Below are positions 45,407-63,775 of a stretch of DNA of 64,000 bases, one piece after another; position 1 is the stretch's first letter; each line of letters starts with the position of its first letter. The position numbers were made by a program, and so were the translations under genes. Location: positions 1,116,001-1,180,000 of the forward strand of contig CAUYUJ010000001.1 in NCBI GenBank assembly GCA_963575745.1, in the 5' to 3' direction. The stretch comes from Prorocentrum cordatum. Taxonomy: Eukaryota. Below the pieces are notes generated by a model that worked only from the letters and a program-made list of their open reading frames with translations, was not told where the DNA came from and did not search any database.

Positions 45407-45639
45407 CAGCGGATGCGTCCCGCCGTCTGCTTGACCGCTTGTTGAATCCAAAACTCGCCCCGCCGACCAAGAAACATCGCAGCGGGGGCGGGCGAGGCAT
45501 GGCGGGGGGGGGGCGAGCGGTTGCGTGAAGGGGGCCTTGGGCAGGGTCCCAGTGGGGCCCTGAAAGTGCACGAAAGGTGCTCGTGTCTCCCCCTCCCCCG
45601 TTAACGGGCGGACCGAGGTTTGAGATCGAGGTCGGTTCG

Positions 45640-48600: not shown

Positions 48601-50066
48601 CCGCGACCCACCCGCGACCCACCCCGCGACCCGCCCGCGGTCCACCCCGCGGTCCACCCCGCGACCCACCCGCGACCCACCCGCGACCCACCCGCGACCC
48701 ACCTGGCGACCCACCCGCGACCCATTTTCGACCCAAACCACGTTCAAGGTACAAACCACCATTTTCAGCGCCTGCGGCGGGTTTTTTTGCATTCCTTCCA
48801 TGTGGAGAACCCGCGACCAACCCGCGACCCAAACCACGTTCAGGGTACAAACCACATGTTTCGGCGCCTGCGGCGGGCATCTTTTGCATTCGTTTCAGGT
48901 GGAGAGCCCGCGGCCTACCCGCGACCATGTTCAGGGTACAAACCAAATTGTTCGGCGCCTGCGGCGGGCATCTTTTGCAGTCGTTCCCGGTGGGGAACCC
49001 GCGGCCCACCCGCGACCCAAACCACATTCAGTGTACAAACCAAATGTTTCGGCGCCTGCGGCGGGCTGCTTTTGCATTCCTTCCAGGTGGAGGTGGAGAG
49101 CCCGCGACGCACCCGCGACCCAAACAACGTTCACTGAACAAACCAATGCCGCACAAGCGCGGCGGCGGATTTTTGCATGCCGTCTGAGCCCGCAACGACC
49201 TCTTCAAGCCCCGCGCATCCACGCCAGCCCGTCCAGCAACTTTGCCCTGGCGAGTTGCCTTGATCAGAGAAGTCGGGGAGCATAAAGTGGAAAAAAGGAT
49301 TGCGTTGCCGTTATCTTGGGAAAGGAGGGGGAGGCAGGAGGAGTAAACAGGGGACGAGGAGGACGCGGAAGAAGAGAGGATGTAAGGAGAATGAGGAGAA
49401 AGAGGAGGAGGAGGAGGAGGAGCAGGAGGAAGCCATTTGGCCTCTTGCGGGCCAGCCGATCCCGATCGATCCATCGGGGTCGGTCGGCGCCTGCCGCCCG
49501 ATCGATCGCGGTGGCAGGGCGCATCGCGCATCGGCCAGCCCCCGAGGCCGGGCTCACGCGCGCCGCGCGCCATCTTCTGCGGCAGGGGGCCACCCGTGCC
49601 TCCCTGTCCCCTGCCGCAGGCCGCGGCGCTCGCGGCCGCGCTGCGGCCCACCGGCGGGACGCCGCCACATCGCCGAGGAGGAGGTCCAGAGGGCGCTGCA
49701 CACCGCCGTGAGCGGCAGCAGAGAGCCCAGGACAGGCTCCTGCTCCGCCTGCGGGCGGCGGCCGAGCGCCTGGCCGCCCACCACTCTGCCCAGCCAGCGA
49801 TGGCACGAGACGGGAAGGGCAGAGGCAGCGGTGGACGAGGCGGCAAGGGCCACGCCCAGGAAGGAGCAGCGCCGCCAGCAGCGCCCCCTTGGCGCCAGGA
49901 GAGGTGGCAGGGCGCTGGATGGCAAGAACAGCAGTGGCATGCGGAGCCAGCAGGCGAGGACCCGCCCTGGCGCAGACCGCTATCACGGCCGCGGCGCTCT
50001 GGCCAGGCCAGCCCTCGCCAATGGCAACCGCAGCAGCAGCAGCAGCAGCAGCCCAGCCAGCCCCCA

Positions 50067-50109
<43 letters not shown>

Positions 50110-53100
50110 TGCCGCAGCAGCCCAGGGCGGGCAAAGGCGGCCAGGCCAGCTCCAGCAAAGCGGACCAGAGGGCTCAAAAAGTCATTGACTCTGTGGCAGC
50201 CTGCACGCTGGACGAGGCCACCTCCCACCCAAAGTGGCAGGCGCCCCCAGCCGACCGCGCAGGCATCCAGAAGTTTCTGAGCAGCGCTGACCAGAGGCTG
50301 AGGAAGCTCGGCGACCTGGTCGTCGCCAAGCAGGCCGCGGGCGACAGCACGAAGGAGCAGTTGATGGACATCTCGGTCATCAAATACCAGAAGCTGGTCA
50401 CGAGGAGGCCGAATGACCAGCTGCAGGTGCTCAGCAAGAGGCGCAAGGCCGTCAAACTCGAAGTCATCGCCCTCGAGGCCAAGACGAACGAGCTGCGGGA
50501 CGACCTCAAGGCCAAGCAGCAGGAGTTGAGGCAGCTCGAGTCCAACATCGCCGACGCGCGGGCCGTGCTCGCCGACGGCGGCGCGGCGGACGACGAGGGC
50601 GACTGGGACACGGACGGGTTTGGCTTGGCGCCGAGCTGGGGTGCCTTCCACAAGGCCGTGATCGATAGGCGCCTGAACAGCGAAGCACCTGGTGACGGAT
50701 TTCCAGCTTGGCCAGCGGGAGTGGTGGGGCGCTCGCCACGCTCAAGAGCCAGCTCGGCAGGCAGCGCAACCAGAGGCTTCGCCGATCAGGTGGCTAAGGC
50801 GAATGCGGAGCGGGCCCACCAGCAGCAGCGCCATGCCGAAGCCGAGCAGGAGTTTGCTGCCGAGCTGGCGGAAGTCAGGAGGGTCGCCCGAGAGCAGGCA
50901 CTCCGCCACAACGCCGAGCAGGCGAAGCTCAGGCTGGCACTCAAGGAGGAGTCAGAGCAGCTGCAGCGCATCACCGCAGCGGAGAGCGCAGCCCAGCAGC
51001 AGCAGCAGAAGCAGCAACACAAGGCTCTCCGCCACGAGATCAAGAAGCAACAAGCCGAGCAGCTCGAGTTCGCGACGCAGATGGAGGCCAGGATAATCAG
51101 CCATGACGCAGCCTTCAGTCAAGCCAAGGCAGAGGCCGAAGCGGCGACCCAGCGTGCAAATCACCTGCAAGAGCAGCTTGAGCATGCCCGAGCGGAGCAC
51201 CGAGCGCAGCCGCAGCCCCAGGACAGGGTCTACCAAGACCTGCTGCGGGCAAGAGCCGAGGCACAAGAGGCAGTGCGACAGGCCCAGCACGAGAGCGCCC
51301 AAGCGACAGCTGCAGCGGGCACTCTCAAGCAGCAGCTCACCAGGCAGGAGCTGGTCATGGAAGAGAAGCTCCAGGAGGCCAAAAAGAACCACGCCCTCGA
51401 GCTTGAAGCTGCCGCCGAATCAGCCAGGGCCCAGGCAATTGCCCAGGCCCAAGTGGTTGCCAATGCCAAGGGAAAAGGGGCCCTCCCGCCGGCAGAAGCG
51501 GCCAGGCTGCAAGGGATCGCCCAGACAGCAGCACGGCAGCAGGATCGGCTCAAGCAGACCAAAAGCGAGCTCGAGGCAGCTGAAGCCCGCATACACGAGC
51601 TCCAGCAGTACTCCAAGCTTGAGGCGGGCGCTGCGCAGCGTGCAGTACAGGTTGCACACCACGAAGCAGCGGAGCTGAGAAGCACCAACGAGGAGCGGCA
51701 GATCCCGCACGAGGTGCAGGCATTGCAGTTCGCCCTGCTAAGGACGAGGGCAGAGGAGGAGGAGATTGCGAAGGCCAGCCTGAAGGACAGGGAGGCAATG
51801 CGGGCAGAGCTCGAAGGCAGTGCTGAGCGAATAAGGTCAAGTCTCACCCGCCAAGTCATGATAGAAGAAGCGAACGCACATGACTTGCAGCTGCACACAG
51901 AGAGCCTGCGACAGGAACTGAGCAGCTACGCGGTGCAGCTGAGCGAGCAAAGGCCCAACGCAGAGGTGCAGGAGCAGGCGCTGGAGGAGGAGCCCGCCCA
52001 AGCCCCCACCTTCAGGATCGCCAGCATGGAGGAGGCCTCCGCCATGGAAGACTTTGCCAGCCAGCAGAGGACGGGCAGGGAGGAGGCCATTCACCTCGCG
52101 CTGCAAGATAGCCTCCAGCGCTCCCGCACGCTACACACCGAGCTCGACGCCATCGCAAAGAAGGAGCAGCAGGGCGCGTCGGAGACAGATGAGTTAAAGC
52201 TGAGAATGCAGAGCCTGGAAGCCATTGCAGCCAGCAGGGAACGTGAACGCAAGGCCATGGTCAGCCTGCACGCCGAGATGAGGCAACACGGGCAGGAGGG
52301 CTACGACTTCACCAAGAGGGCAGCTCATCACCTCGTCCAAGGGGGGCCACCTCCTAACGTCCCAAGAGTCCATGGACGACTACCAGGAGGCCGCCGACCT
52401 GCACGAGAAAACCAGAGGAGCAGCCGAGGCAGCGACCGCCCCAGCGGAGTCCCCCGTTGCGACCAATCTCCCAACTGGTGCAGCCGAGGAGCGCCCAGCC
52501 AACAGGGGCCGTAGGCAGAGCAGCTCCTCGCCTCGGAGGCCAGCATCAACCAGGTCAGCCAGATCAGCAGCCCGCCAGACCGACGAAGGCGATGTACCCC
52601 TCATAGAGCGTGACAGGTCCAGGAGCCCCGACAGGCCAGACCCGCTTGAGGAGGCAGAAAGATACGAGCGCGAACAAGATGATTTGCGCAGACAAGATGC
52701 TGAGGAGAAAGCACAATGGGAAGCCGCACAGATGGAGGAGGAGCTGGAGTCCGTAGTGAGGGACCACGAGGCGGAGGAGATCCAAAGGCGCTACTACGAG
52801 GAGGCCCCCTTGACCCAGTTCGGCACTGTGGGCACGCAGGACTCCCAAGCGGAGGACGACGGCTCGGAACATGCGCCGATAATCTACCCCGCCAGCTGGC
52901 CGCCCTGGAGCCAGGATCACCCCACACCCGAGGAGGGTGAGGAGATGAGGGGAATCACGCAGCACGAGGCAGACACAGACCTGGCATCCACGTCAAGGGT
53001 TAGCTCGGTACCAGCAGAGCAAGGCGACCCTCCTACTCCGACAGCATCTCAGGTGATCTTCATCCCAGCATCGCCAGCGCCACTCAGCGAGAGGTCACTC

Positions 53101-56100
53101 ACGCCCACAGTTCCATTCGGGCATGATGAGCAGCGCGGCCATGGAGGTGGAGAGGGAGCCGACAGCTTCGTATTGACCCCTCCCCCTGCATCCCAGCAGA
53201 ACGCGGAGGCGGCAGCGGCCAGCATCGAGAGGCAGTACGAGGGCATCGACATCCTAACGCGCCAGCACACCTCAGCCGCCGCCGCAGCTGCAGCCCTCGA
53301 AGAGGCGTTTGGACCCGCGCCCGCATTTCCAGGAGAAGACATCAGCCAGGCCCACAAGGGTCAGCGGGTAGACTCTGGAGAGTCAGGCATAGCACGTTTT
53401 CGTGGCCGAGTGGCCCGCAGGAGGGACGAGACAAGGGGCACAGCAACCCCCTCCCCTCCTGCAACTCCTGGAGCCGAGGAGCAGGCAGCAGCAGCGCCCG
53501 CTGGACCCCCCCGAGGGGGGGAGGGGGCCTAGCAGCGCCGCCAGGCTTCAGGTCATGCATGACAGAATTCACTGCCAGGAGGCGGCCGATGAGTCCAACA
53601 GGGCAGAGCACGACGGATGTGGGCTTTCTTCACGCTCTCCGATCAGTTCGACAGCATCGATCTCCTGGGCAGCATTGGGGAGAGCAGCTGGGGCCCAAAG
53701 CCCGCAGCACGGCAGTGGGGTCCTCCACTACGATGCTCGACCTACCCACCACCAGAGGCCTGAAAGCACGGCGGGCCCTGGGGTTATTTGCGACAGCCGT
53801 CTAGTAACAAAAAGACCAGCAGAGATTGCGACAGTCTCACACACCAGATCAGGTTCTCCCAGGAGTCCAGGGTCCCGAGGGGCCACGACTCCAAGCAGAC
53901 GTGCTACCGCAACTGGCATTGGCAGTGGGAGGGCCACTCCCAATCGCAGCAGCCAGCAACAACAGCGGTATCAGTCACCTGGGTCTCGAGGGGCCAACGT
54001 GACACCACCACGGCCGACACGAGGGCCGCCCGCCGCGTCTCGAGGGGCGCTAGGCGGCAACCAAGGAGGCACACTACCAGGGAGGAGTGATGCATCCGCC
54101 AATCTGTCAGCACTTCAGGTCACAAGCCACCAAGATGGCCGCAAGGATGCGTTACCGGCTGCCCTTGCACTCAGCGTGTCCCCCTCCGCCATCCGAGTCC
54201 ACGAGATCGAGAACGTGGAAAGGACCTTTCTCGACGGACAAAACTCGACTGGCAGCGAGGCTGAGGACGGCATGGAGCAATGCTACGAGGAGCGGAAGCA
54301 AGCGCGCGCAGTCGCAGCCTTCCGATCAGCCCAGCGGCGTGCACGCCGCGCACGGCGCGCTGCGGAGAGCCACAGTCGTCGGGACAACGGCAGCACCCAC
54401 AACAAGTACCATGCCCTGGTGGTGGATCCAGACCCGACGGACCCAGCAGCTCACCCAGCATCACCAGTGGCCCCAGTCCCGACGGACCCAAACAGCTCAC
54501 CACGGCCAAACAGGTGGAAGCCAACGCTCCCCTCGGCATCAGCGCGCTCCCACCACGGCACGGGTGCTACCAATCACCCAGACGCCCTGGATGGCGAACC
54601 TTATCGTCTACGTGACAGCATGCTCCACGCCCAATCACGCGAGCCCCTGTTCAGTGAGGCCGCGCGGGCTGGATCGGACAACTTGAACTACGATGAGGGG
54701 AGCCAAATGCCATCACTACCACCCGTGAAGCGGAGTGCGCCTCAGGCTGGGGCCATATCTCTAGCCCCGCCGACCTGCTCCGCGACATCACAGCAATCTC
54801 CAGCCCGCATTACCACTACACAAGGTCCCACTCTACAGGGCATGGAACTGGCGCCAGACGACGACATCGAGTACTCCCCCGAGTACGTCAGTGCTGAGAG
54901 AGCCAGGCGTGGCCGAAGACAACGGCAGCTCCCCACCACGGCAGCACCAGAAAGAGGCCAAACTGCAGTGCTGCCAGTTCTCAGCCAAGACCCAGTAGCC
55001 GAGACCCTTCGTGGCCGAGGCCGCGTCAACGTCTGCGCCGACGTCGACACTACGACCCTGCACAACATGGCAAGGATGGCGCTGGAGATTTGCCCATCAC
55101 GCGAACTGCCGACCAGGAGGACACACATCTACACGGACGGCAGCTACAACGGCATCCCACATACAGCCGCCTGGGCAGTAGTTATTGTCGACGAGTACGA
55201 CGACGGGCGCAACTCACGAGGCCCGTTTGGTTTTCAGGGTTTCATTGCTGGCAAGGTCACCGAGTCCCTAGACGACATGGCAAACAACGAGAAGGTGACG
55301 GCATACACAGCTGAGCTCACGGCAGTACTTTGGGCACTAATGTGGGCCCTTGGTCAAGACACCGCCGCGCCCATCGAGGTCACGCCCGATGCCCTCAACG
55401 TTATCAACCTGGCCAAAGGCGAAGCCCAATGCCACGTACATCCGAGGTTGGGGGCCGCCATTCGCACGCTTGCTGGCCTCCTCCAACAAGCCCGACCTAC
55501 CCAGTGGCACCACATTAACTCGCACATTGGGCACCCTTGGAACGAGCTCGCAGATGGGATAGCAGATCTAGCTTCGGCCAGCGACCTGGTGGACCCGAAC
55601 ATTGCAGCAGTGCAGGCGATCGCTCACAACAAGTTCCTTCCCTGGGAATGGTTACGCTCAGAGCCAGATGCGGTCAAGTCCGCATACCCTCCCTTGCGGA
55701 ACCAAGACTTCATCATCGAGGCCACCCAGCCGCAGGCAGCCCCAGGTGCGATCCAGAGGCCCATCAGCACCACCACCATCAAGGCCGACCTCAACGTGAA
55801 TTTGTGCACCTACAACTGCAGATCACTCAAGGCCGCCGTCAGCTTCAAGTCGGGCAAAGGCAAGGCGGCCGGCAAAAGCAAGCAGAGCCTCTCCAAGGTC
55901 ACGCACCTAGCAGCACAGTTTGCTGACATGGGCCTGCACGTCGTGGCCCTCCAGGAGACGCAGAGCGAAGGAGACGTCCGCAACGTAGGAGAATATGTTT
56001 GCTACTCCTCAGGCCACACGCAGCAGAACAGAGGATGCGACATCTGGCTCAACGTCTCCCAGCCAATCAGTGCGAGTGGGGCAGCGAAGTACCTAAGTGC

Positions 56101-59100
56101 CAAACACACCCTCGTCCTCCACCAGCACGACAGGCTCTTGATCATCAAGACCCGCGTTGCAGGCACAGACATGGTCATCGCCTCAGCATATGCACCCCAC
56201 GAAGACTCCCACGCGGCTGAGAAGAGAGAATTCTGGGAGTCTGCTCAGCGATTGTCTGCCAAGTATCGCGTGGACATCTTTATGGGGGACCTGAACGGGC
56301 GTATTGGCGACTACGAGTCCCCAGGAGTTGGCACCAGTGGGTACCCAGAAGCGACCAACGGCAATGGCAAGCACATCATCAGCTTCGCTGCCGACACCAA
56401 CATGGAGGTCATCAACACCACGAGGGATCCAGGCAACAACTCATTTACGCATGTCGGATCGAAGGGGCAGCACCACAGGATAGACTACATCCTGCTGAGC
56501 TCCTCGATCGCCCCGTACGTTGCGAGCTGCAGCACGGAGCCAGGTCTGGACCGAGGCACAGCTGCACAAGACCACATACCAGTACTCGCCACCCTCAAGT
56601 GGGCCGTCTGCAAGACCACCAAGGCCTCAGGACCGAGGCCCGACCTGACCAACTTGAACAACGACGTCGCCAAGGCCAGCTTCAAGGAGATTCTCAAGCA
56701 GGCCCCGATCATCCCCTGGGAGGTGGACGTCAACACCCACTGCGAGGAGGTCACCAGGGTCGTCAACGACGCGGCCATCCAGGCCTTCGGCAAGGCCGTC
56801 AAGGCAGCGAGGAAGCCCTACGTCACCAAGACTACCATGGGCCTAATCCGAGCCAGGCGCCTCACACTCCGAGTCCACCGCGCACTGCTCAGAGGAGAAG
56901 CCCATGACGACCGACCTGGACGACTAGTAGCCCACGCCCACTCTCTTCTTGGAAGCGAAGTCGGGGACTCACTGTCCCTGTGGAGCAGAGAGCGTGGCGA
57001 CGACGATGGCACCATCCACGACATCCACGACTACGCGCACCTCCTCCTGAACTGGACGATCTCGCCCATGGTCTACGCCATGGCCATCCTTTCCTTCCTC
57101 ACCAGGTCCGGGCCCTTCGTTGCCTCGGCCGTCGAGAAGGACCGTAGTGCATTCCTCAGTCGGCTTGCCTCAACTGCGTCCTCCGCCTCCGCTGCGAACG
57201 ACGCTGCGGCCCAGTGGAAGGCCTACCGCGACCTACTAAGGTATGGCGGGAGGAAGGCGAAGTTCCCAGCAGGAAAGCCGATGCGGCTCGACAAGGATGG
57301 AGAGGTGATCCACAACTCCCAGGACATGGCGGACCAGGAGCTCAACCATTTCGCGAAGATACAGGCGGGCAAGATCGTGACAGCGGATGATCTTGCCAAC
57401 AAGTACAATCACGACAGCAAGACCAGGCCCTTCGACGGCATGCTGGATCTCTCGATGGTGATGCCCCTGGCCGTCTGCCAGGCCCAGTTCGCTGCGGCCA
57501 AGGCTGGGACGCAAGGAGGCCCTGACGGGCTCACGAACGCTGTCCTCAGGGCGGCCCCTACAGAGGCAGCAAGGCTACTGCACCCCCTCTTCACCAAGGT
57601 GGCGACCACCGTACGGGAGCCGCTGAGCTTCAAGGGTGGGGACCTGGTCGCAATTCCCAAAGGAAAAGGCGACCCACGGTACCTCCAAGTCTACCGCGAG
57701 ATCCTCTTAAACAACGTCCTGGGCAAGCACCACCATAAATACCTAAGGGCCATGCTCAACACTACCCTCGCCATAGCGCTGGAGGACATCCAGGTTGGCG
57801 GCCGGCCCAAGCGAGGGGCAGACATGGCGGTCCTAGCAGCGCGCCTCTTCACAGAGGGAAGTCAGGCCCAAGGGAAGTGCTCCATGATTAGCTGCTACGA
57901 CTTAAAGGAGCCCTTCTACTCGGTTGTAGTCCAGCTGGTCCATGGCATCCCAGGCGAGGAGGACGAGGTCAAGGAGGTGCTAGAAAACCTCGAAGTTCCC
58001 CTGTGGGCCCAGCCACAACTGGAGCACCTCATGGCCAACCCAGGGATACTCGACACAGTGTTGGACGGCTCCCACCTGGCTGCCCTCATTGCAGAAGGTT
58101 ACCGCAACAGGTGGACATCACACAGGTTCTCCCAGAACCTCATGGCGCCGCACAAGGGCACGAGGCCTGGCGTGCCCCTGGCCGACGCGGACTTCAATCT
58201 GCTATTCGGCCGAGTCCACCGCATGATTGACAGCTACCTTGCGCAGCGAGGGCTACGACCCCAGGGCAAGCCCCTTGACAGCAGCTTCGCATGCGACACC
58301 GACCCCACAGATGGGCCACTCCAGGAGCATGAACCTCACGGCCTATCGTTCGTCGACGACCTAACGGGCATGCACGTGTTCACCAGCCCCGACCACATTC
58401 AGTATGAGGCCACGGGGTTCTGCGAAGCCGTCTACTGCGCCGCCAGCACCTTCGGCCTCCAGCTGCAGCTCACCAAGACCAAGGTGATGATCGACTTCAG
58501 TGGGCCTGGGAGCCGGCAAGCTCGGGCCAGCTTCTATTCCAATGGAGTTCCGAGGATCGAGGTCCCCCTCGCAGAGAGTTACGTCGAGGTTGTTCGTCAC
58601 CACAAGCTCCACGGGACCTACGTGACCGACAATGCATCCCCTGGGTGGATGTCGCAGTGAAGGTAGCCACTGCAGCGACATCCACGAGGCCTCTCCATCG
58701 CGAAGTCCACCGACGCTCAGAGCTGGCCATCAAAGACAAGGCCTACCTAGCCGACAGTGTGGTGCTATCCCAGCTACTATACAATGCGTCTACCTGGCCT
58801 GAACTCACAGCAGGCCAGGCCAGGAATTTCAACAACCAGTATATCGTGAACTACGCTGCCGCGCAAAGGATCACTTGGAAAGCACGACAGAAAAAGGAGG
58901 TCACGAACACCCAGATTCTCGAAGGGGTCGACAAGCTGCCCCCAGAGATAGTCCTACGACTTGAGCGGCTACGACTATGTGGTAGATGCCTCAACTGGGG
59001 ACCCCTGCACCTCCGCCGACTACTTAGCCAAGCATGGGATGGTAGTTACGGCTGGGTGGCACTGCTCCGCCGCGACTTAGACTGGGTCCGCGACCACACA

Positions 59101-62100
59101 GGACCTGACAATCGTGGTGGAGCATACACGCTCGAGGACTGGAAGGACTGGGCCAGGAACGACTACCAAAGCTACCTCAGCGCAGTAAAGAAAGCTTGCC
59201 AACGAGGCAAAGCCCGCCAGTACGATCACGACTACCAAGCTCGATGGCGGCTACGACCCCAACGGTGGACCAACACGGAAGCCATCTCGCCCTTCCCAGA
59301 CCAGCACTTTGAGCAGCAGCGCAAGTACCTATGCTACCGCTGCGGACGTACTGAAGCCAGCGCAGCAGTGCTACGAGCACACATCACCAAGGACCACACC
59401 TCGTCGGGTCATCCTATCTCGTGGGCAATTGGTTCGGTCTGCTACGGATGCGGCATGGATTACCACACTACAAACAGGCTGGTCAAGCACTTGCTGAGAG
59501 TGCGCAGGTGCGCTCGACATTGGCGAAAGACACGTCCAGCAATCCTCAGCAAAGCCGAGCTGCAGCACAACCAGCAAGTGGTGCGCGACCAGCAGCAGGC
59601 GAACAGAAGGGCGGGCAGGCCCATCGACTGGGCAGAGAAGCCTGCAGTCCCTGCTCGTCCTCCAGAAATACATACGGACGAGGACAGCGACGACAGCAAC
59701 GGCGGCCACTACGAGAGCCTAGAGCTCCCCTTCATCGAGGAGCCACCACCGCCGCCAGCTGCTGTACCCAGGCCCAGGCCAGCTCGGACGCTATACGTGC
59801 TGCATTTATTCAGCGGCCGTCGCCGAGAGGGAGATGTTCAGGATTGGTTCGACCGTCTCAGCAGTCGGGCTTCCTGCGACATACACATGCTCAGCCTGGA
59901 CATCGCCAACGACCCGACCTTCGGCGACCTGACTTCAGAAGTCGCAGTCAGCAAGTGGCGAGACATGGCACAAGCAGGGAGGATTGCAGGAGTCATCGGC
60001 GGACCACCGTGCGAGACCTGGAGCCGAGCGCGCCACCTGCCCCCCAATGACTGCAGGGGTCGCCCACCAAGACCCCTAAGGAGCAGCAACAGCTTGTGGG
60101 GCCTTCGCTACCTTTCCCGTCCAGAGATGGAGCAAGTAGCGATAGGCAACCGCCTTTACAGGACACAGCTGGAGCTCATGTACATGTGCCTCAACATTGG
60201 AGTCCCAGGCATGCTCGAGCACCCGTGCGAGCCCACCGAGGAGCACTTCGCCAGCTCCTGGAAGCTCCCCGAGACGCGCCACCTCCTGAACCAGCAGGGA
60301 GTCGAGCTGATCACATTCGACCAGTGCACCTGTGGAGCGCGTTCGAGGAAGTCCACAAGCCTGCTGGCGGTATCCCTACCAACCCTCCCAGCAGAAATCA
60401 GCAGATTGCCTGGAGGCGGGAGGTGCTTTCACACGGCCTCCTACCATGCGGAGCTGGCAGGCATCAACGACGACGGCCAGTGGCGCACCGCGGCGGCCAA
60501 GGAGTACCCGAACAGGATGTGCCAGGCCATCGCGACCGCACTGGCGAAGCAGATAAGGTGGCGCTTTGGCGAGTCGCCTAGCGACGTCCACGGGTGGCAC
60601 ATCGACGACGACGTGGCCCACTTCTTCCAGCCGCTCGACCGCTACAAGACCAGGGAGATGGGTCAGGACTACCATCGTGGCCCAGCGAGGCGAGGGGGCC
60701 CACCGACCTGGTTGGAAGAGGCAAGGGAGTGGGCCCTGCAGGACCGACCCGACAAGGCAATGGACAGGACCACCAACTCGACAGGAGCTGTTCGGGCACA
60801 GGCTGACGACGCGGATCGCGACGAAGTGCCCTGACGACAAGTACAAAAGGATCAGAACGCAAGTCCTGAGGAAGCCCCGAGCGCGAGGGAATACCTCAGG
60901 CTACGTCGCCAAGTTTTGCACAAGTCGTCAGGACGCAAGTCTTGGGGAAGCCCCGAATGCGAGGGAACACCCCAGGCACACGTCGCCACGTTTTGCAGCA
61001 GTGACGGACACGGCCGCCGTTCAGCCAGGGCTCAGAGGTACCAGCCAGATCCCCAACTGCACCAAGTACGAGTCAACGCTGCCCTGGTGAGGCAAGGATC
61101 AAACTTCGAGACGGGCTCGAAGGGCGGGGGGGCAGGACGAGGACTGCCCGCGTCTACCAGGGGGGATGGTGAGGGGCAGGGGGGGGGCAGGACGAGCACT
61201 GCCCGCGCCCCCGCGGTCCGCCCTAGCTCGCCACCCCCACCATTCCCATGGCGGAGATGGAGCTCCCGAGCGCCCAAGGGCGAAGCATAGGGCAGCGTTG
61301 ACCTTCCTCATCGACAGCAGAAGAATCACTGGGCCTGGGGTTCGCCCCCACCGAGGGCACTGTGACCCCTAGCCATAGCGGGACGAGGTAGGGCCGCCAT
61401 GAACCCTACTTGAAGTCGGTGCATGGAGGCCTGAGTGCGCCCACAATCTATTCCACCTACCAGCAACAAGCCGACCCCCAACGACCTCTAACCAGCACGA
61501 CAAGTACCTCATCGGCTGAGACGAGTACCAGGAGCCTGGGTCCAATACATGACTGGTACGAGGGCCACACGGATGGGCAGAGCAGAGTCGACAACAATTG
61601 CGACCAGCATGACTGAGTCGAGTATCACAAGCTCGAGGGCGACAGTACTACGCTCTACTACAAGACCAACGACCACCGAAGTGGCCCAGAGAGGAGGCCG
61701 AGTCGTCGGGGTTGGTCACTGCTGAGTCAACCAGAGTTACCTCGACCAGCACGGCTGAGTCGAGTATCACGAGATCGAGGGCAACATAATCAGGCAGTAC
61801 CTCAAGGTGTGGACTACCGACGTGTCCATCGAGGAGGAGGGCTTCCCCGACCTCGCTGACGAGGCGAGGGAGTGGGCCGCCAACACCGTCCTCGACAAGA
61901 GCCAGGGTAGGACCACCAGAACGGCGAGTTCTGAGAGGGCGCGGAGCTCGGGGCTCGTGAGCCGCCGACGGCGCCTGAAGGGGCCGCGACAACGGGGCCC
62001 CTAGGGACCGTAATTTGGTGCCTCCCCCTTACCCCCAGATCGCTCTCACCCAGGCCTGACCCAGGGATCCTTCACCGTAGGCCTTCTGGCTCTGGAGGGG

Positions 62101-63160
62101 TTAGGGGGAGGTACACCAGGTGGGCCTTCTGCCCACCTGGTCCCAGCGCCTGTGCGCTGCCGCCCAGGCAAGGATAAGCTGCTGGACAGGGGCGGATATC
62201 CTGGGCGGCAGCGCGACGGGCCACATCCCAATTCGGCATCTCGAGGCAGTCCGAGGCTCCTCCCTTTTCCTTCCCTGCGTATCCCTTCGTTGCCCTTCCT
62301 CCCCTTCTCTCGGAGGCCTTCGGACTGCCACCTGGCTCGCAGGCTTGCCTAGGCCTCGCCCCCCCCGCTTCTCCTCCGCCCCGTCATCTGGGAGGCCTCC
62401 TTCCTCTCTCCCTGGGCGGGCCCCCCCCCCAGCGCCGAGGGCGCCAGCGTGTCGGCCGCGCGCGCGGCCAGGCATGGGCGCAACGGCGCCCCCGATGCGG
62501 CGCAGGGAGCACCCTCATGCCGCGGCAAATAGCGGAAATAGCGGAGCAGGAGGACGAGGAGGGGGAGGAGGGGGAGGAGGGGAAGGAAGAGGACGAGGAG
62601 GGGGAGGAGGGGAGGAGGAGGATGATGGACGACAATGGGAGGACGATGATGGAGGCCGATGAGGGGGAGGACGACAATGGGAGGACGATGATGGAAGGAC
62701 GAGGGGGGGAGAGGGAGGACGAGGAAGAAGAGGAGGACGACGATGACGATGAGGACGAGGACGAGGACGAGGAAGAGGAGGAGGAGGAGGAGGAGGAGGA
62801 GGAAGAGGAGGAGGAGGAGGAGAGCGCCATCGACAGGGAAGGTGGGGGCCACGAGGTCCGCCGGCTCGACGACGCCCGCGTCGCCCGCGCCCGCCCCCTC
62901 ACTCTTTTCCGCAATTGCGGGGTGCTACGTAGGGGAATCCTGGGACTTGTATCGATTTGTTTGTGTGTCCCTGGGCCCCATTCATGTCTCCCCCTTTGGC
63001 CCGACCCGACCTTGGCCCCCCTCCGGGGGGTGCGCCAGCAGGCGCAGCTCGGCCTCATCGGCCGCGGCGCGGGCCAGCTGTCCCCGAGGCCCCCCGCCGA
63101 AGCGCCGCCGGGGCGCTCGGCGTACCCGCGCCGCGCGCGCCAGGGCTCGACGGCGCCATG
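45640..63160 (-). CDS. Possible minus-strand multi-exon gene hosting the LINE in an intron (not resolved)
   Basis: Unique coding-like islands at ~45640-45800, 46020-46110, 48105-48250, 49200-49275 and 63030-63160; no domain recognised. Confidence 0.2.
48461..49180 (+). repeat. CCCGCGACCCAC minisatellite followed by ~5 copies of an ~90-bp unit; shares its left flank with 12810-12980
   Basis: Direct inspection; the unit contains GTACAAACCA...GCGCCTGCGGCGGG. Confidence 0.85.
49419..49430 (+). repeat. Left target-site duplication of the LINE (GGAGCAGGAGGA)
   Basis: Identical 12-mer at 62543-62554. It contains the non-repeat triplet GCA, so it is not just microsatellite sequence. Confidence 0.8.
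49431..49447 (+). other. Relic dinoflagellate spliced-leader-like sequence at the LINE 5' terminus
   Basis: AGCCATTTGGCCTCTTG matches the DinoSL 3' part AGCCATTTTGGCTCAAG at 13/17 ungapped positions and starts immediately after the TSD. Confidence 0.55.
49800..53532 (+). CDS. LINE ORF1: Gly/Arg-rich N-terminus, poly-Q, long coiled-coil, acidic/Pro-rich tail; one frameshift at ~52341-52346
   Basis: ATG at 49800 ([17 protein letters not shown]...) in the frame of ORF 49437..52514, with long E/Q/A/L/R helical content. Removing one G from the G6 run at 52341-52346 joins it to ORF 52372..53532 ([18 protein letters not shown]). Confidence 0.72.
53555..58660 (+). CDS. LINE ORF2, 5' part: RNase H, apurinic-type endonuclease, reverse transcriptase
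   Basis: RNase H motifs IYTDGS, TAELTA, D, HINSH..NELAD (~55124-55575). APE motifs [34 protein letters not shown] (~55793-56597). RT motifs [31 protein letters not shown] (58349-58360). First in-frame ATG after the ORF1 stop is at 53555. Confidence 0.95.
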   Translation: MHDRIHCQEAADESNRAEHDGCGLSSRSPISSTASISWAALGRAAGAQSPQHGSGVLHYDARPTHHQRPESTAGPGVICDSRLVTKRPAEIATVSHTRSGSPRSPGSRGATTPSRRATATGIGSGRATPNRSSQQQQRYQSPGSRGANVTPPRPTRGPPAASRGALGGNQGGTLPGRSDASANLSALQVTSHQDGRKDALPAALALSVSPSAIRVHEIENVERTFLDGQNSTGSEAEDGMEQCYEERKQARAVAAFRSAQRRARRARRAAESHSRRDNGSTHNKYHALVVDPDPTDPAAHPASPVAPVPTDPNSSPRPNRWKPTLPSASARSHHGTGATNHPDALDGEPYRLRDSMLHAQSREPLFSEAARAGSDNLNYDEGSQMPSLPPVKRSAPQAGAISLAPPTCSATSQQSPARITTTQGPTLQGMELAPDDDIEYSPEYVSAERARRGRRQRQLPTTAAPERGQTAVLPVLSQDPVAETLRGRGRVNVCADVDTTTLHNMARMALEICPSRELPTRRTHIYTDGSYNGIPHTAAWAVVIVDEYDDGRNSRGPFGFQGFIAGKVTESLDDMANNEKVTAYTAELTAVLWALMWALGQDTAAPIEVTPDALNVINLAKGEAQCHVHPRLGAAIRTLAGLLQQARPTQWHHINSHIGHPWNELADGIADLASASDLVDPNIAAVQAIAHNKFLPWEWLRSEPDAVKSAYPPLRNQDFIIEATQPQAAPGAIQRPISTTTIKADLNVNLCTYNCRSLKAAVSFKSGKGKAAGKSKQSLSKVTHLAAQFADMGLHVVALQETQSEGDVRNVGEYVCYSSGHTQQNRGCDIWLNVSQPISASGAAKYLSAKHTLVLHQHDRLLIIKTRVAGTDMVIASAYAPHEDSHAAEKREFWESAQRLSAKYRVDIFMGDLNGRIGDYESPGVGTSGYPEATNGNGKHIISFAADTNMEVINTTRDPGNNSFTHVGSKGQHHRIDYILLSSSIAPYVASCSTEPGLDRGTAAQDHIPVLATLKWAVCKTTKASGPRPDLTNLNNDVAKASFKEILKQAPIIPWEVDVNTHCEEVTRVVNDAAIQAFGKAVKAARKPYVTKTTMGLIRARRLTLRVHRALLRGEAHDDRPGRLVAHAHSLLGSEVGDSLSLWSRERGDDDGTIHDIHDYAHLLLNWTISPMVYAMAILSFLTRSGPFVASAVEKDRSAFLSRLASTASSASAANDAAAQWKAYRDLLRYGGRKAKFPAGKPMRLDKDGEVIHNSQDMADQELNHFAKIQAGKIVTADDLANKYNHDSKTRPFDGMLDLSMVMPLAVCQAQFAAAKAGTQGGPDGLTNAVLRAAPTEAARLLHPLFTKVATTVREPLSFKGGDLVAIPKGKGDPRYLQVYREILLNNVLGKHHHKYLRAMLNTTLAIALEDIQVGGRPKRGADMAVLAARLFTEGSQAQGKCSMISCYDLKEPFYSVVVQLVHGIPGEEDEVKEVLENLEVPLWAQPQLEHLMANPGILDTVLDGSHLAALIAEGYRNRWTSHRFSQNLMAPHKGTRPGVPLADADFNLLFGRVHRMIDSYLAQRGLRPQGKPLDSSFACDTDPTDGPLQEHEPHGLSFVDDLTGMHVFTSPDHIQYEATGFCEAVYCAASTFGLQLQLTKTKVMIDFSGPGSRQARASFYSNGVPRIEVPLAESYVEVVRHHKLHGTYVTDNASPGWMSQ
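58645..60834 (+). CDS. LINE ORF2, 3' part (continuation after a 1-nt indel): RT C-terminal region, two zinc fingers, C5 cytosine DNA methyltransferase
   Basis: [14 protein letters not shown] is the usual post-RT motif. Zinc fingers: CYRC-x12-H-x4-H (59332-59397) and CYGC...H...C (59440-59511). DNMT motifs: I LHLFSG (59800-59817), IV GGPPC (59998-60012), VI-like EHP (60217-60225), VIII-like Q..G..SRK.T, X-like [13 protein letters not shown]. Confidence 0.92.
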   Translation: MDVAVKVATAATSTRPLHREVHRRSELAIKDKAYLADSVVLSQLLYNASTWPELTAGQARNFNNQYIVNYAAAQRITWKARQKKEVTNTQILEGVDKLPPEIVLRLERLRLCGRCLNWGPLHLRRLLSQAWDGSYGWVALLRRDLDWVRDHTGPDNRGGAYTLEDWKDWARNDYQSYLSAVKKACQRGKARQYDHDYQARWRLRPQRWTNTEAISPFPDQHFEQQRKYLCYRCGRTEASAAVLRAHITKDHTSSGHPISWAIGSVCYGCGMDYHTTNRLVKHLLRVRRCARHWRKTRPAILSKAELQHNQQVVRDQQQANRRAGRPIDWAEKPAVPARPPEIHTDEDSDDSNGGHYESLELPFIEEPPPPPAAVPRPRPARTLYVLHLFSGRRREGDVQDWFDRLSSRASCDIHMLSLDIANDPTFGDLTSEVAVSKWRDMAQAGRIAGVIGGPPCETWSRARHLPPNDCRGRPPRPLRSSNSLWGLRYLSRPEMEQVAIGNRLYRTQLELMYMCLNIGVPGMLEHPCEPTEEHFASSWKLPETRHLLNQQGVELITFDQCTCGARSRKSTSLLAVSLPTLPAEISRLPGGGRCFHTASYHAELAGINDDGQWRTAAAKEYPNRMCQAIATALAKQIRWRFGESPSDVHGWHIDDDVAHFFQPLDRYKTREMGQDYHRGPARRGGPPTWLEEAREWALQDRPDKAMDRTTNSTGAVRAQADDADRDEVP
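62543..62554 (+). repeat. Right target-site duplication of the LINE
   Basis: Follows the (AAATAGCGG)2 tail, overlapping it by GG; the GAG-rich tract resumes afterwards. Confidence 0.8.
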
Positions 63161-63359: not shown

Positions 63360-63775
63360 TTAGAAATTGCAAGAGCTTCACGAATTGAGGGCGGGTGGTT
63401 TTCAAAATGTGGTTCTCGCTTTGGCGCCGCGCACATTCGTTTTGAAAAAGTATAAGAGCTTCACGGGTTGAGTGCGGGGGGGGCCAAAATGTGGTTGTCG
63501 CTTTACCGCCGCGCACATTCGTTTCAAACACTTGCAAGAGTTTCACGGATTGAGGGCGGGTCGTTTTTTTTGAATGCGCCTCTCGCCTTAGCGCCAGGCA
63601 CATTCGTTTAGAAACATTGAAAGAGCCTCACGGATGGAAGGCGGCTCTCTTTCAAAATGTGGTTCTCGCTTTAGCGCCACGCACATTCGTTAAAAAAACT
63701 GCAAAAGTTTCACTGATTGAAGACGGTTCCTTTTCAAAATGTGGTTCTCGCCTTAGCGCCGCGCACATTTTTTTT
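63360..63775 (+). repeat. Tandem repeat, ~83-bp unit, ~5 copies
   Basis: CAAAATGTGGTTCTCGC.TT.GCGCC.CGCACATT recurs at ~63403, 63485, 63653 and 63735, with a degenerate copy near 63570. Confidence 0.85.

What the first reader, a model, noticed from the sequence alone, without database searches (positions are those of the whole stretch)
49431..62544. Complete LINE retrotransposon encoding its own cytosine DNA methyltransferase fused behind RT and zinc fingers
Seen: both ends are defined (TSD and tail), and ORF2 ends in a C5-MTase with SAM-binding LHLFSG, catalytic GGPPC, EHP in place of canonical ENV, and a very short target-recognition region rich in Cys/His ([15 protein letters not shown]). 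Established: DNMT-bearing retrotransposons have been reported in Symbiodiniaceae dinoflagellates, so the general concept is not new. Inference: this is a young, near-intact member with an unusually complete architecture. It could methylate its own cDNA or insertion site during target-primed reverse transcription, matching a CG-methylated host genome.
Basis: partly seen in the sequence, partly recalled or inferred. Interest (0 to 1): 0.88.

Follow-up and report, generated by a model that had tools for sequence, protein, structure and literature searches.

The report
LINE carrying hidden cytosine-methylase-like domain
A 13-kb jumping gene (a LINE) in a GC-rich marine eukaryote ends its reverse-transcriptase protein with a strongly conserved domain shaped like a DNA cytosine methyltransferase, which ordinary sequence searches miss and whose activity is untested.

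Summary
The observation largely holds. Window 49431-62542 is one insertion into a (GGA)n microsatellite. An exact 12-bp target-site duplication flanks it. It encodes a coiled-coil ORF1 and an ORF2 with RNase H, AP-endonuclease, RT and two C2H2 fingers.

That domain fails Pfam PF00145. Two independent AlphaFold models (pLDDT 86.4 and 86.8) nevertheless match C5 cytosine methyltransferases first: the top 18 and top 17 rows, Z 10.9-8.3, against Z 8.2 or less for generic Rossmann folds. The Pro-Cys, the Glu of EHP and the motif I/II residues are nearly invariant in 238 relatives. The family is large, with 4779 clusters, and the domain sits near the C-terminus.

- This copy has two 1-base frameshifts in G-runs and a private Pro-to-Ser change.
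- Sibling copies do not share the last 0.73 kb.
- The Cys/His in the short recognition region are not conserved.
- The published SymbioLINE-Dnmt has its DNMT in ORF1, not ORF2.

Methyl-transfer activity is inferred, not shown. I rate it a new variant of a known kind.

The parts
49419..49430 (+). left copy of the 12-bp target-site duplication GGAGCAGGAGGA, at the end of an (AGG)n array (49323-49430)
49431..49799 (+). 5' untranslated region of the element, about 70% G+C
   Evidence: first ATG of ORF1 at 49800
49800..52514 (+). ORF1 as it reads in the window (904 aa): poly-Q stretch, then long charged helical (coiled-coil-like) sequence. No PF00145 hit and no other real Pfam hit.
52342..53532 (+). 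continuation of ORF1 in the +1 frame. Contigs of all four runs lack one base at 52341 (a G6 run), which would make 49800-53532 a single ORF1 of about 1243 aa (inference).
53555..58642 (+). ORF2, first part (frame 2), from the first ATG to the frameshift. Its N-terminal ~520 aa are low-complexity.
55121..55570 (+). RNase H domain, N-terminal to the endonuclease
   Evidence: PF00075, E 7.9e-8, above cut-off; same order in P0118, P0183, P0238
55805..56563 (+). AP-type endonuclease (Exo_endo_phos)
   Evidence: PF03372, E 5.4e-6, above cut-off
57047..58639 (+). reverse transcriptase. No Pfam RVT_1 hit for the window copy alone.
   Evidence: tblastn, 16 of 18 homologues, 23-29% identity; family profile hits R2 and L1 ORF2p RT, E 1.5e-9 to 3e-7; negatives
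58640..58648 (+). frameshift inside ORF2. Sibling contigs carry one more G behind 58642 (GGG run), which keeps one frame from the RT to the end of ORF2.
   Evidence: (X1 137.7 of 137.7, X2 14.6 of 14.6, X4 20.3 of 39.5, X5 35.5 of 60.5 depth)
58643..60834 (+). ORF2, second part (frame 1), stop codon included
59320..59517 (+). two C2H2-type zinc fingers
   Evidence: zf-C2H2_4, E 0.0093, below cut-off; near-invariant C/H columns; profile positions ~665-740 hit C2H2 chains, E 5e-9 and weaker
59788..60585 (+). C-terminal C5-cytosine-methyltransferase-like domain. It carries [12 protein letters not shown]54, [25 protein letters not shown]....K(S)T and AKEYP.
60835..61806 (+). 3' untranslated region shared with sibling copies. 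It holds internal direct repeats at 60852-60920/60928-60997 and 61601-61644/61743-61786.
61807..62542 (+). distal 0.73 kb that sibling copies in the four runs do not share. It begins with a diverged copy of the last ~60 codons of ORF2 (61807-61992) and ends in (AAATAGCGG)~2 at 62527-62542. It may be 3' transduction, a template-switch chimera, or an older truncated relative.
62543..62554 (+). right copy of the 12-bp target-site duplication, at the start of a (GGA)n array (62543-62822)

Best explanation
This is a 13.1-kb AP-endonuclease-type LINE, inserted as one unit into a (GGA)n microsatellite. ORF1 is a long coiled-coil protein. ORF2 reads RNase H, AP endonuclease, RT, two C2H2 fingers, then a ~265-aa domain descended from C5 cytosine methyltransferases. 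That domain is too diverged for sequence models to see.

The domain is a fixed, strongly selected part of ORF2 in a large LINE lineage whose relatives include Symbiodiniaceae gene models.

Most likely mechanism (inferred, not shown): the domain is a working cytosine-C5 enzyme tethered to the RT. During or just after target-primed reverse transcription it flips a cytosine in the nascent cDNA, the target DNA or the RNA template. Cys91 of the PPC motif attacks C6, Glu160 of EHP protonates N3, and a methyl group is transferred from SAM.

This particular copy is probably dead or mis-assembled. It has two 1-base frameshifts and a Pro-to-Ser change at a near-invariant site.
For: LINE identity:
- RNase_H and Exo_endo_phos hits above the Pfam cut-offs.
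- RT shown by homologue tblastn and by the family profile against R2/L1 structures.
- Exact 12-bp TSD at both junctions of a split microsatellite.
- Hundreds of laid contig pieces at 85-99+% identity in four runs.

Fold:
- Model 1 (window domain plus 27 homologues) has pLDDT 86.4. VIA-wide rows 1-18 are all C5-MTases, Z 10.8-8.3 (DNMT3B 6u8p Z 10.8, rmsd 4.6, 206 aligned; HhaI Z 10.2). The next row is an SDR at Z 8.2.
- Foldseek against PDB gave 34 hits at E 1e-3 or better, and every listed row is a DNMT or C5-MTase.
- Foldseek against BFVD gave an unnamed 210-aa viral protein first (E 2e-9), then cytosine MTases, including that of Tetraselmis virus 1 (E 1.5e-6).
- Model 2 was built from 42 other family members, none of them in model 1 (pLDDT 86.8). 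Rows 1-17 are all C5-MTases, Z 10.9-8.5, and the first other fold scores Z 8.1.

Motifs lie in the canonical order on the predicted strands (motif definitions recalled). Counts are from 238 relatives:
- F24 179 (Y 37), G26 222, D54 230, D/N63 233.
- P90 237, C91 235, E160 230.
- Q195 225, K204 219, T206 226.

Selection and spread:
- The domain shows 31-41% identity to relatives, against 23-29% for the RT. These relatives were found with the domain as query, which biases the comparison.
- 4779 clusters at E 1e-3 or better; the domain lies near the C-terminus of proteins up to 3711 aa.
- The same domain order occurs in P0118, P0183 and P0238.
Against: - No PF00145 hit for the window domain at E 1 or 10. 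Only 2 of 28 relatives hit it, at E 0.05 at best.
- A family profile found 0 PDB chains at E 10.
- hhalign against 79 Dcm orthologues and against 11 transposon-type DNMTs gave probabilities of 1.4-2.9% (P 0.015-0.036).
- Foldseek TM-scores are low (0.29-0.42). The Z margin over generic Rossmann folds is only about 2.5.
- The glycine-rich SAM loop is replaced by G-R-R-R-x-G-D, with R28, R29 and D32 near-invariant.
- The R-x-R of motif VIII reads K-P-T, and no GN(A/S)V-type motif X is visible.
- No cofactor binding, activity or substrate was tested.
- The canonical SymbioLINE-Dnmt, a different module, showed no de novo DNA methylation in yeast (passage).
- In this copy ORF2 is broken and P205 is Ser.
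Confidence: 0.5

Rival explanations
1. The domain derives from the C5-MTase fold but no longer methylates DNA cytosine. It could be an RNA m5C enzyme acting on the LINE RNA, as DNMT2 acts on tRNA. It could use another cofactor or chemistry. Or it could serve as a base-flipping or nucleic-acid-gripping module that helps ORF2p hold the template or target during reverse transcription.
For: - The SAM loop is remodelled into an Arg-rich loop with near-invariant R28, R29 and D32. Further family-specific invariant Arg/Pro residues (R98, P110, R114) follow the PC motif.
- The R-x-R of motif VIII and the GN(A/S)V of motif X are not recognisable.
- The domain fails PF00145.
- DNMT2 chains and a C5-carboxymethyltransferase (8yf3) are among the matches at Z 8.0-9.5, so the fold does not fix the substrate or the transferred group.
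- The authors of the SymbioLINE paper themselves raise RNA methylation for LINE-borne DNMTs (Discussion passage).
Against: Cys91 is kept in 235 of 238 relatives and Glu160 in 230 of 238. The motif I Phe/Tyr and the motif II Asp are kept as well. That is the pattern of a live active site with an adenosyl pocket, not of a mere binding module. A pseudoenzyme such as DNMT3L scores lower (Z 6.7-7.0).
Confidence: 0.35
2. The domain is a generic Rossmann-like nucleotide-binding domain, SDR-like or another methyltransferase class. Its likeness to C5-MTases would then be convergent or an artefact of structure prediction.
For: - Short-chain dehydrogenases follow closely, at Z 8.2-7.0, and FtsJ scores Z 6.9-7.3.
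- Sequence-level tests are all non-significant.
- Foldseek TM-scores are 0.42 or lower.
Against: - In two independent models every one of the top 17-18 rows is a C5-MTase, and the alignments span the whole catalytic domain, for example HhaI residues 10-327.
- All listed PDB Foldseek rows, and most of the named BFVD rows, are cytosine MTases.
- An invariant Pro-Cys after strand 4 and a Glu at the end of strand 5 sit where C5-MTases have motifs IV and VI (motif positions recalled).
- Even the non-significant hhalign and hmmsearch alignments place motifs I and IV in register.
Confidence: 0.08
3. The 13.1-kb unit is not one element. A full-length LINE (49431 to about 61806) would abut an older, 5'-truncated relative (61807-62542), and the 12-bp repeat would be a chance match within the microsatellite.
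For: - Depth drops sharply after about 61815 in all four runs.
- 61807-61992 repeats the ORF2 end at about 74-78% DNA identity.
- GGA-rich flanks make short repeats likelier than the whole-window shuffle suggests.
Against: - The exact 12-mer lies precisely at both outer junctions and only once elsewhere in 64 kb.
- Both outer flanks are the same microsatellite.
- No repeat was seen flanking 49431-61806 alone on reading the junction sequences.
- Either way, the ORF2 architecture and the domain are unaffected.
Confidence: 0.25

Closest known systems
SymbioLINE-Dnmt retrotransposons of Symbiodiniaceae (de Mendoza et al. 2018, PMC5890265; passages read, three supplementary files searched)
   Same: - A LINE with Exo_endo_phos, RVT_1 and RNase_H domains, TSDs and no poly-A tail.
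- It carries a DNMT-type module that is under selection.
- Gene models with prefixes I recall as Symbiodinium kawagutii (Skav) and Breviolum minutum (symbB) are among the relatives of the window's domain.
- In one database protein (P0188) the window-type domain is directly followed by a complete DNMT-ORF1 protein of that type.
   Different: - There the DNMT is a canonical PF00145 domain in ORF1, upstream of the RT ORF.
- Here ORF1 has no DNMT. The module is a far more diverged domain fused to the C-terminus of ORF2, behind the zinc fingers.
- The two modules are not detectably alike in sequence (hhalign probability 2.9%).
- The paper's passages, and the supplementary files held, mention no C-terminal ORF2 domain and no zinc finger.
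DNMT3A/DNMT3B catalytic domains and small bacterial or viral C5-MTases (M.HhaI; Tetraselmis virus 1 putative cytosine MTase)
   Same: - Best structural matches: Z 10.9-10.2, about 200 aligned residues, rmsd 3.9-4.8. BFVD gave E 2e-9 (an unnamed protein) and 1.5e-6.
- The same order of motif I Phe-x-Gly, motif II acid, Pro-Cys and motif VI Glu.
- A very short region between motifs VIII and IX, about 36-40 aa, as in DNMT3 (motif lore recalled).
   Different: - 8-17% identity only.
- An Arg-rich insert in the SAM loop.
- EHP in place of ENV.
- K-P-T in place of R-x-R.
- A ~20-aa PRPLRS..WGL insert after the catalytic loop.
- No GN(A/S)V.
- Fused to a LINE RT.
LINE clades with a C-terminal enzymatic domain behind zinc fingers (R2/CRE-type and Dualen-type restriction-like endonuclease; recalled, no call)
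   Same: The position of an extra catalytic domain after the RT and a zinc-binding motif at the ORF2 C-terminus. The family RT profile hits R2 proteins best.
   Different: No nuclease appears among the 50 rows shown for either model. The element also already has an N-terminal AP endonuclease.
Retrotransposons with appended DNMT or DAM modules (SymbioDIRS-Dnmt3, Gypsy-DNMT3, EpiLTRs; bioRxiv 10.64898/2026.05.21.726589, passages read)
   Same: The general theme of a methyltransferase captured by a retroelement. In EpiLTRs the DNMT is appended at the 3' end of pol.
   Different: Those are LTR or DIRS elements with recognisable DNMT3/DNMT4-like or Dam-like domains. None of the passages read describes a LINE ORF2 fusion.

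Membership tests
C5 cytosine DNA methyltransferase (Pfam PF00145 / DNMT superfamily) | Scores above the PF00145 gathering threshold | tested here: not met
   The window domain gave 0 hits at E 1 and at E 10. 2 of 28 relatives hit it, at E 0.05 at best. None of the 92 relatives carries a precomputed PF00145.
C5 cytosine DNA methyltransferase (Pfam PF00145 / DNMT superfamily) | Catalytic-domain fold of C5-MTases | tested here: met
   Two independent models: the top 18 and top 17 VIA rows are all C5-MTases, Z 10.9-8.3, spanning the whole domain. Foldseek against PDB and BFVD agrees. The margin over SDR folds is about 2.5 Z, and TM-scores are 0.42 or lower.
C5 cytosine DNA methyltransferase (Pfam PF00145 / DNMT superfamily) | Motif IV Pro-Cys nucleophile after strand 4 (definition recalled) | tested here: met
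   GGPPCETWS in the window. P90 in 237 of 238 and C91 in 235 of 238 relatives. It follows strand 82-87 of the model.
C5 cytosine DNA methyltransferase (Pfam PF00145 / DNMT superfamily) | Motif VI Glu-Asn-Val (definition recalled) | tested here: inconclusive
   The Glu is kept (E160 in 230 of 238) at the end of strand 157-162. Asn-Val is replaced by His-Pro (231 and 232 of 238).
C5 cytosine DNA methyltransferase (Pfam PF00145 / DNMT superfamily) | Motif I F-x-G-x-G SAM loop, motif II acidic residue, motif X GN(A/S)V (definitions recalled) | tested here: inconclusive
   F/Y24, G26 and D54 are conserved. The loop reads G-R-R-R-x-G-D, and no GN(A/S)V is seen; AKEYP..LC.ALA stands in its place.
C5 cytosine DNA methyltransferase (Pfam PF00145 / DNMT superfamily) | SAM-dependent transfer of a methyl group to cytosine C5 | not testable with these tools
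   No biochemical data and no methylation calls were available.
AP-endonuclease-type LINE (non-LTR retrotransposon) | Reverse transcriptase of the LINE type | tested here: met
   tblastn of 16 of 18 homologues over 57047-58639. The family profile hits R2 and L1 ORF2p at E 1.5e-9 to 3e-7. The window copy alone hits neither Pfam RVT_1 nor any PDB chain.
AP-endonuclease-type LINE (non-LTR retrotransposon) | AP-type endonuclease N-terminal to the RT | tested here: met
   PF03372, E 5.4e-6, 26.8 bits against a cut-off of 24.5.
AP-endonuclease-type LINE (non-LTR retrotransposon) | Target-site duplication, no LTRs, many copies | tested here: met
   Exact 12-bp repeat at both junctions. No long terminal repeats in the self-comparison. 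309-1183 contig pieces laid per run in four runs.
AP-endonuclease-type LINE (non-LTR retrotransposon) | Family-specific 3' tail at the true 3' end | tested here: inconclusive
   (AAATAGCGG)~2 lies at 62527-62542. The last 0.73 kb is not shared by siblings, and no sibling 3' end could be fetched.
SymbioLINE-Dnmt (de Mendoza et al. 2018) | Canonical DNMT encoded in ORF1, upstream of the RT ORF | tested here: not met
   ORF1 (49800-52514 and 52282-53532) has no PF00145 hit. The definition comes from passages read.
SymbioLINE-Dnmt (de Mendoza et al. 2018) | LINE ORF2 with Exo_endo_phos, RVT_1 and RNase_H; TSD; no poly-A | tested here: met
SymbioLINE-Dnmt (de Mendoza et al. 2018) | RT groups with Symbiodinium LINE ORF2 in a tree | not tested
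   No tree was built. The only evidence is that Skav and symbB gene models are among the relatives, at 30-38% identity in the domain.

The most novel reading that the evidence does not exclude
The C-terminal domain is an active, RT-tethered cytosine-C5 methyltransferase. It would found a large, so far unrecognised DNMT clade (at least 4779 clusters at 50% identity) that is universal to a dinoflagellate-type LINE lineage. Each new insertion, or its RNA template, would be methylated in cis during target-primed reverse transcription. The published SymbioLINE-Dnmt elements would then carry two DNMT-type modules: a canonical one in ORF1 and this cryptic one in ORF2.
Probability: 0.35. Interest if true: 0.82.

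Novelty: new variant of a known kind. Interest (0 to 1): 0.62.

Why it matters
Retrotransposon-borne DNMTs are known, but only as recognisable domains in LTR or DIRS elements or in a LINE ORF1.

Here a DNMT-fold domain is hard-wired to the C-terminus of the LINE reverse transcriptase. It is conserved better than the RT itself in the relatives examined. It is spread over thousands of sequence clusters. The standard Pfam model does not detect it, so censuses of eukaryotic DNMTs based on PF00145 would have missed it.

If it is active, it couples DNA or RNA cytosine modification physically to target-primed reverse transcription. That would give a direct, testable system for asking why mobile elements carry the very enzymes that usually silence them. 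If it is not a methyltransferase, it is an example of a DNMT fold recruited to a new job in retrotransposition.

In four full-text searches, and in the passages and supplements read, I found no description of such an ORF2 domain. Repbase and subscription journals could not be searched.

Tried and rejected
- **Own genome:** none is held. Sibling copies, dN/dS per domain and the family's true 3' end could therefore not be worked out.
- **Sibling variants:** contigs of four runs show 1389 variant places, of which only 40 were printed. The 39 coding ones split into 17 synonymous and 22 non-synonymous. Only 2 fall in the MTase-like domain, both synonymous. That is too few to test selection.
- **Expression:** no RNA holder was listed for the element.
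- **Sequence link to DNMTs:**
  - hmmsearch of the family profile against PDB gave 0 hits.
  - hhalign against E. coli Dcm alone gave 2%.
  - A global-mode run was meaningless.
  - hhalign against 79 Dcm orthologues gave 1.4%.
  - hhalign against 11 transposon-type DNMTs gave 2.9%.
- **RT:** phmmer of the window's APE-RT stretch against PDB gave nothing relevant.
- **Closed services:** The source organisms of the relatives are therefore unknown, apart from gene-model prefixes.
- **Host taxon:**
  - Pfam on 11 flanking ORFs (plus the ORF1 continuation 52282-53532) gave only fn3.
  - A homologue search with one of them gave a single unnamed hit.
  - There were no Rfam families and no tRNAs in the window.
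  - The host stays unidentified. 'Dinoflagellate' and 'CG-methylated host' remain untested.
- **Metagenome contigs:** an exact 26-mer of the 3' UTR gave 0 matches. A protein-guided scan gave 3 short spurious matches.
- **Earlier findings of this scan:** nothing.
- **Rejected ideas:**
  - A zinc-binding Cys/His recognition region: those residues are not conserved.
  - A restriction-like endonuclease at the ORF2 C-terminus: no nuclease among the 50 rows shown per model.
  - A separate ORF starting at 'MPPP': this was an alignment artefact, and the domain is internal or C-terminal in all 27 homologues.
- **Not run:** Complex prediction, because no binding claim is made.

Full report
**1. What is in the sequence**

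The region is 58-71% G+C. Read with the standard code, it holds a chain of long + strand frames:
- 49395-52514, frame 0
- 52282-53532, frame 1
- 53393-58660, frame 2
- 58408-60834, frame 1

The first frame (ORF1, ATG at 49800) is a poly-Q stretch followed by a long charged helical protein. It has no real Pfam hit.

The third frame carries two Pfam domains above their cut-offs:
- RNase_H: PF00075, E 7.9e-8
- Exo_endo_phos: PF03372, E 5.4e-6

A reverse transcriptase follows. Pfam and a single-sequence PDB search both miss it, but two results show it:
- tblastn of 16 of 18 homologues covers 57047-58639 at 23-29% identity.
- A profile of the window plus 13 homologues hits R2 and LINE-1 ORF2p chains at E 1.5e-9 to 3e-7, and hits C2H2 fingers with profile positions ~665-740.

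The fourth frame holds the two fingers.

**2. Ends and integrity**

The 12-mer GGAGCAGGAGGA occurs exactly at 49419-49430 and 62543-62554, and once more in the 64-kb window. Shuffles give 0.05 expected. The two junction copies are the inner edges of one (AGG/GGA)n array. So 49431-62542 looks like a single insertion with a 12-bp target-site duplication. Its last bases read (AAATAGCGG)~2.

No whole genome is held, and the window has no second copy. I therefore laid Logan contigs of four public runs on 49300-62700.
- Hundreds of pieces fit per run. X1 gave 1146, of which 245 were at 99% or more, 410 at 95-99%, 343 at 90-95% and 148 below 90%.
- The family is therefore multi-copy and partly young.

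Three corrections follow.

- **ORF2 frameshift.** Behind 58642, contigs of all four runs carry one more G (X1 137.7 of 137.7 depth, X2 14.6 of 14.6, X4 20.3 of 39.5, X5 35.5 of 60.5). This is where the homologues change frame, between 58639 and 58648. In most siblings ORF2 therefore runs unbroken from the RT into the C-terminal domain.
- **ORF1 frameshift.** At 52341 the contigs lack one base. That would join ORF1 to the frame-1 ORF ending at 53532. Both sites are G-runs, so real slippage mutations and assembly errors cannot be told apart.
- **Unshared 3' end.** Depth collapses after about 61815 (X1 328 to 19; X2, X4 and X5 to 0-1.2). The unshared 0.73 kb begins with a diverged repeat of the ORF2 end: 74% DNA identity over 112 nt, BLASTP E 1e-5, alignment.

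Because the duplication flanks the whole unit, I favour a single event that carried this piece along, by 3' transduction or a template switch. Two adjacent insertions remain possible, at about 0.25.

**3. The C-terminal domain**

*Relatives.* A word-indexed search with residues 455-740 of the last frame found 92 relatives at 41% identity or less.
- Some have gene-model prefixes I recall as Symbiodinium kawagutii and Breviolum minutum.
- Some carry RVT_1, Exo_endo_phos or C2H2 hits.
- None carries PF00145.

An exhaustive phmmer search of 1.84 billion representatives found 4779 clusters at E 1e-3 or better, 2107 at 1e-10 or better and 362 at 1e-30 or better. The domain lies near the C-terminus of proteins up to 3711 aa. 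Pfam on 19 long hits shows the same order, RNase H then endonuclease then the domain, in P0118, P0183 and P0238. It also shows RVT_1 upstream of the domain in six others. In all 27 aligned homologues the domain is C-terminal or internal, never a separate N-terminal ORF.

*Sequence-level tests for a DNMT relationship all fail:*
- No PF00145 hit for the window domain.
- PF00145 hits in 2 of 28 relatives, at E 0.05 at best.
- 0 PDB chains for the family profile.
- hhalign probabilities of 1.4-2.9% against Dcm orthologues and against transposon-type DNMTs. These weak alignments do place motifs I and IV in register.

*Structure gives the positive evidence.*
- Model 1 is the window domain with 27 homologues (pLDDT 86.4, pTM 0.84).
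  - Foldseek against PDB lists only DNMT or C5-MTase chains, with 34 at E 1e-3 or better. TM-scores are modest, at 0.29-0.42.
  - The Foldseek-independent VIA search puts 18 C5-MTases in the first 18 rows: DNMT3B Z 10.8, DNMT3A 10.5 and HhaI 10.2, down to 8.3. Short-chain dehydrogenases begin at Z 8.2.
- Model 2 was built from 42 family members, none of them used in model 1 (pLDDT 86.8). Rows 1-17 are all C5-MTases (Z 10.9-8.5), and the first other fold scores 8.1.
- Against predicted viral structures an unnamed 210-aa protein comes first (E 2e-9), then small cytosine methyltransferases, including the 218-aa one of Tetraselmis virus 1 (E 1.5e-6).

*Conserved residues.* They sit where C5-MTases have their motifs. 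The motif definitions are recalled; positions come; counts come from 238 family members.

| Canonical position (recalled) | Residues here | Conservation (of 238) |
|---|---|---|
| Motif I, after strand 1 | F/Y24, G26 | F 179 + Y 37; G 222 |
| Motif II, end of strand 2 | D54 | 230 |
| Motif III-like | D/N63 in G-D-L | 233 |
| Motif IV, after strand 4 | P90, C91 | 237; 235 |
| Motif VI, end of strand 5 | E160 (then H-P, not N-V) | 230 |
| Motif VIII region | Q195, G199, K204-P-T206 (K-P-T where R-x-R is expected) | Q 225; G 221; K 219; T 206 226 |

The region before the AKEYP helix is only about 36-40 aa, and its Cys and His residues are not conserved.

Some features are specific to this family:
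- an Arg-rich SAM loop (R28 214, R29 221, D32 222)
- R98 (236)
- a PRPLRS..W insert

In the window copy, position 205 is Ser. 216 of 238 relatives have Pro there, and no other member has Ser.

In the homologues examined the domain is 31-41% identical to the window, against 23-29% for the RT. This comparison is biased, because the homologues were found with the domain as query.

**4. How it most likely works**

Shown:
- a TSD-flanked AP-endonuclease-type LINE
- a conserved ORF2 C-terminal domain with a C5-MTase fold
- near-invariant Pro-Cys and Glu

Inferred: the domain is a live cytosine-C5 enzyme tethered to the RT. It would act in cis during target-primed reverse transcription on the cDNA, the target DNA or the RNA template, using SAM. 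I put about 0.85 on descent from C5-MTases and about 0.5 on real cytosine-C5 methyl transfer.

The main rival, at 0.35, keeps the fold but changes the job: RNA m5C, another cofactor, or a gripping or base-flipping module. The remodelled SAM loop and the missing motifs VIII and X are its best arguments. The near-invariant Cys and Glu argue against a mere binding module.

CpG o/e is 0.77 in the element against 0.93-0.95 in the flanks. That is compatible with methylation-driven decay, but it is weak evidence.

**5. Comparison with what is known**

de Mendoza et al. 2018 (PMC5890265; passages read, supplements searched) describe SymbioLINE-Dnmt. It is a canonical, Pfam-detectable DNMT in ORF1, upstream of an ORF2 with Exo_endo_phos, RVT_1 and RNase_H. 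It has TSDs and no poly-A tail.
- The window element shares the LINE chassis but has no ORF1 DNMT.
- Its module is a different, far more diverged domain at the other end of the element.
- It fails the defining feature of SymbioLINE-Dnmt and the Pfam threshold of PF00145. I therefore file it under neither, but as a DNMT-fold variant.

One database protein, P0188, has the window-type domain at residues 1057-1325. A complete DNMT-ORF1 protein of the SymbioLINE type follows directly at 1355-2795. This looks like two elements head to tail. It hints that the published elements may also carry the cryptic ORF2 domain. I did not test this.

A 2026 preprint on DAM-bearing retrotransposons lists the known transposon DNMTs, and in the passages read it mentions no LINE ORF2 fusion. 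A survey of microeukaryotic DNMTs (PMC9998398) mentions none in the passages read. Four full-text searches found no other description. Repbase, subscription journals and bioRxiv supplements could not be searched.

**6. Verdict**

The fold, motifs and architecture hold. Family membership by sequence fails, and activity is untested.
- It is a new variant of a known kind, retrotransposon-borne DNMT-type modules. It may be a large unrecognised DNMT-like clade.
- The host organism was not identified.
- Interest: 0.62.

Noticed in passing
protein P0188 (database hit), residues 1057-1325 and 1355-2795: One predicted protein joins a window-type MTase-like ORF2 end directly to a complete canonical DNMT-ORF1 protein (PF00145, E 1.1e-11; 36-44% identical to P0240 over its whole length). 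It looks like two LINEs head to tail. It suggests that SymbioLINE-Dnmt elements may carry both modules.
   Followed up: partly
window 55121-55570 relative to 55805-56563: The RNase H domain lies N-terminal to the AP endonuclease, not after the RT as in most RNase H-bearing LINEs (recalled). The same order occurs in P0118, P0183 and P0238.
   Followed up: partly
window 53555-55100: The first ~520 residues of ORF2 are low-complexity (Ser/Pro/Arg/Ala-rich). They hold most of the printed non-synonymous differences from sibling contigs (54389-54656).
   Followed up: no
window 60852-60920 / 60928-60997 and 61601-61644 / 61743-61786: Direct repeats inside the 3' UTR (86% and 89% identity). Contigs of the runs show joints and loose ends here, so copies seem to differ in repeat number.
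   Followed up: no
window 48802-49146 and 63366-63769: Tandem arrays of a 97-bp unit (3.6 copies) and an 82-bp unit (4.9 copies) flank the insertion site on either side of the (GGA)n microsatellite.
   Followed up: no
window 24287-26644 and 35387-37930 (+ strand): Two long open frames with fibronectin type III hits (E 2.6e-4 and 1.1e-6) look like paralogous host genes. The only database relative found is one unnamed metagenome protein (46% identity).
   Followed up: partly
window 44000-45500: A stretch of 74-77% G+C, well above the window's ~63%, with overlapping long open frames on both strands.
   Followed up: no
window 49323-49430 in runs X1 and X5 (first bin): Very high summed contig depth (324 and 946) over the AGG microsatellite next to the element. 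It is most likely repeats from elsewhere, not copies of this locus.
   Followed up: no
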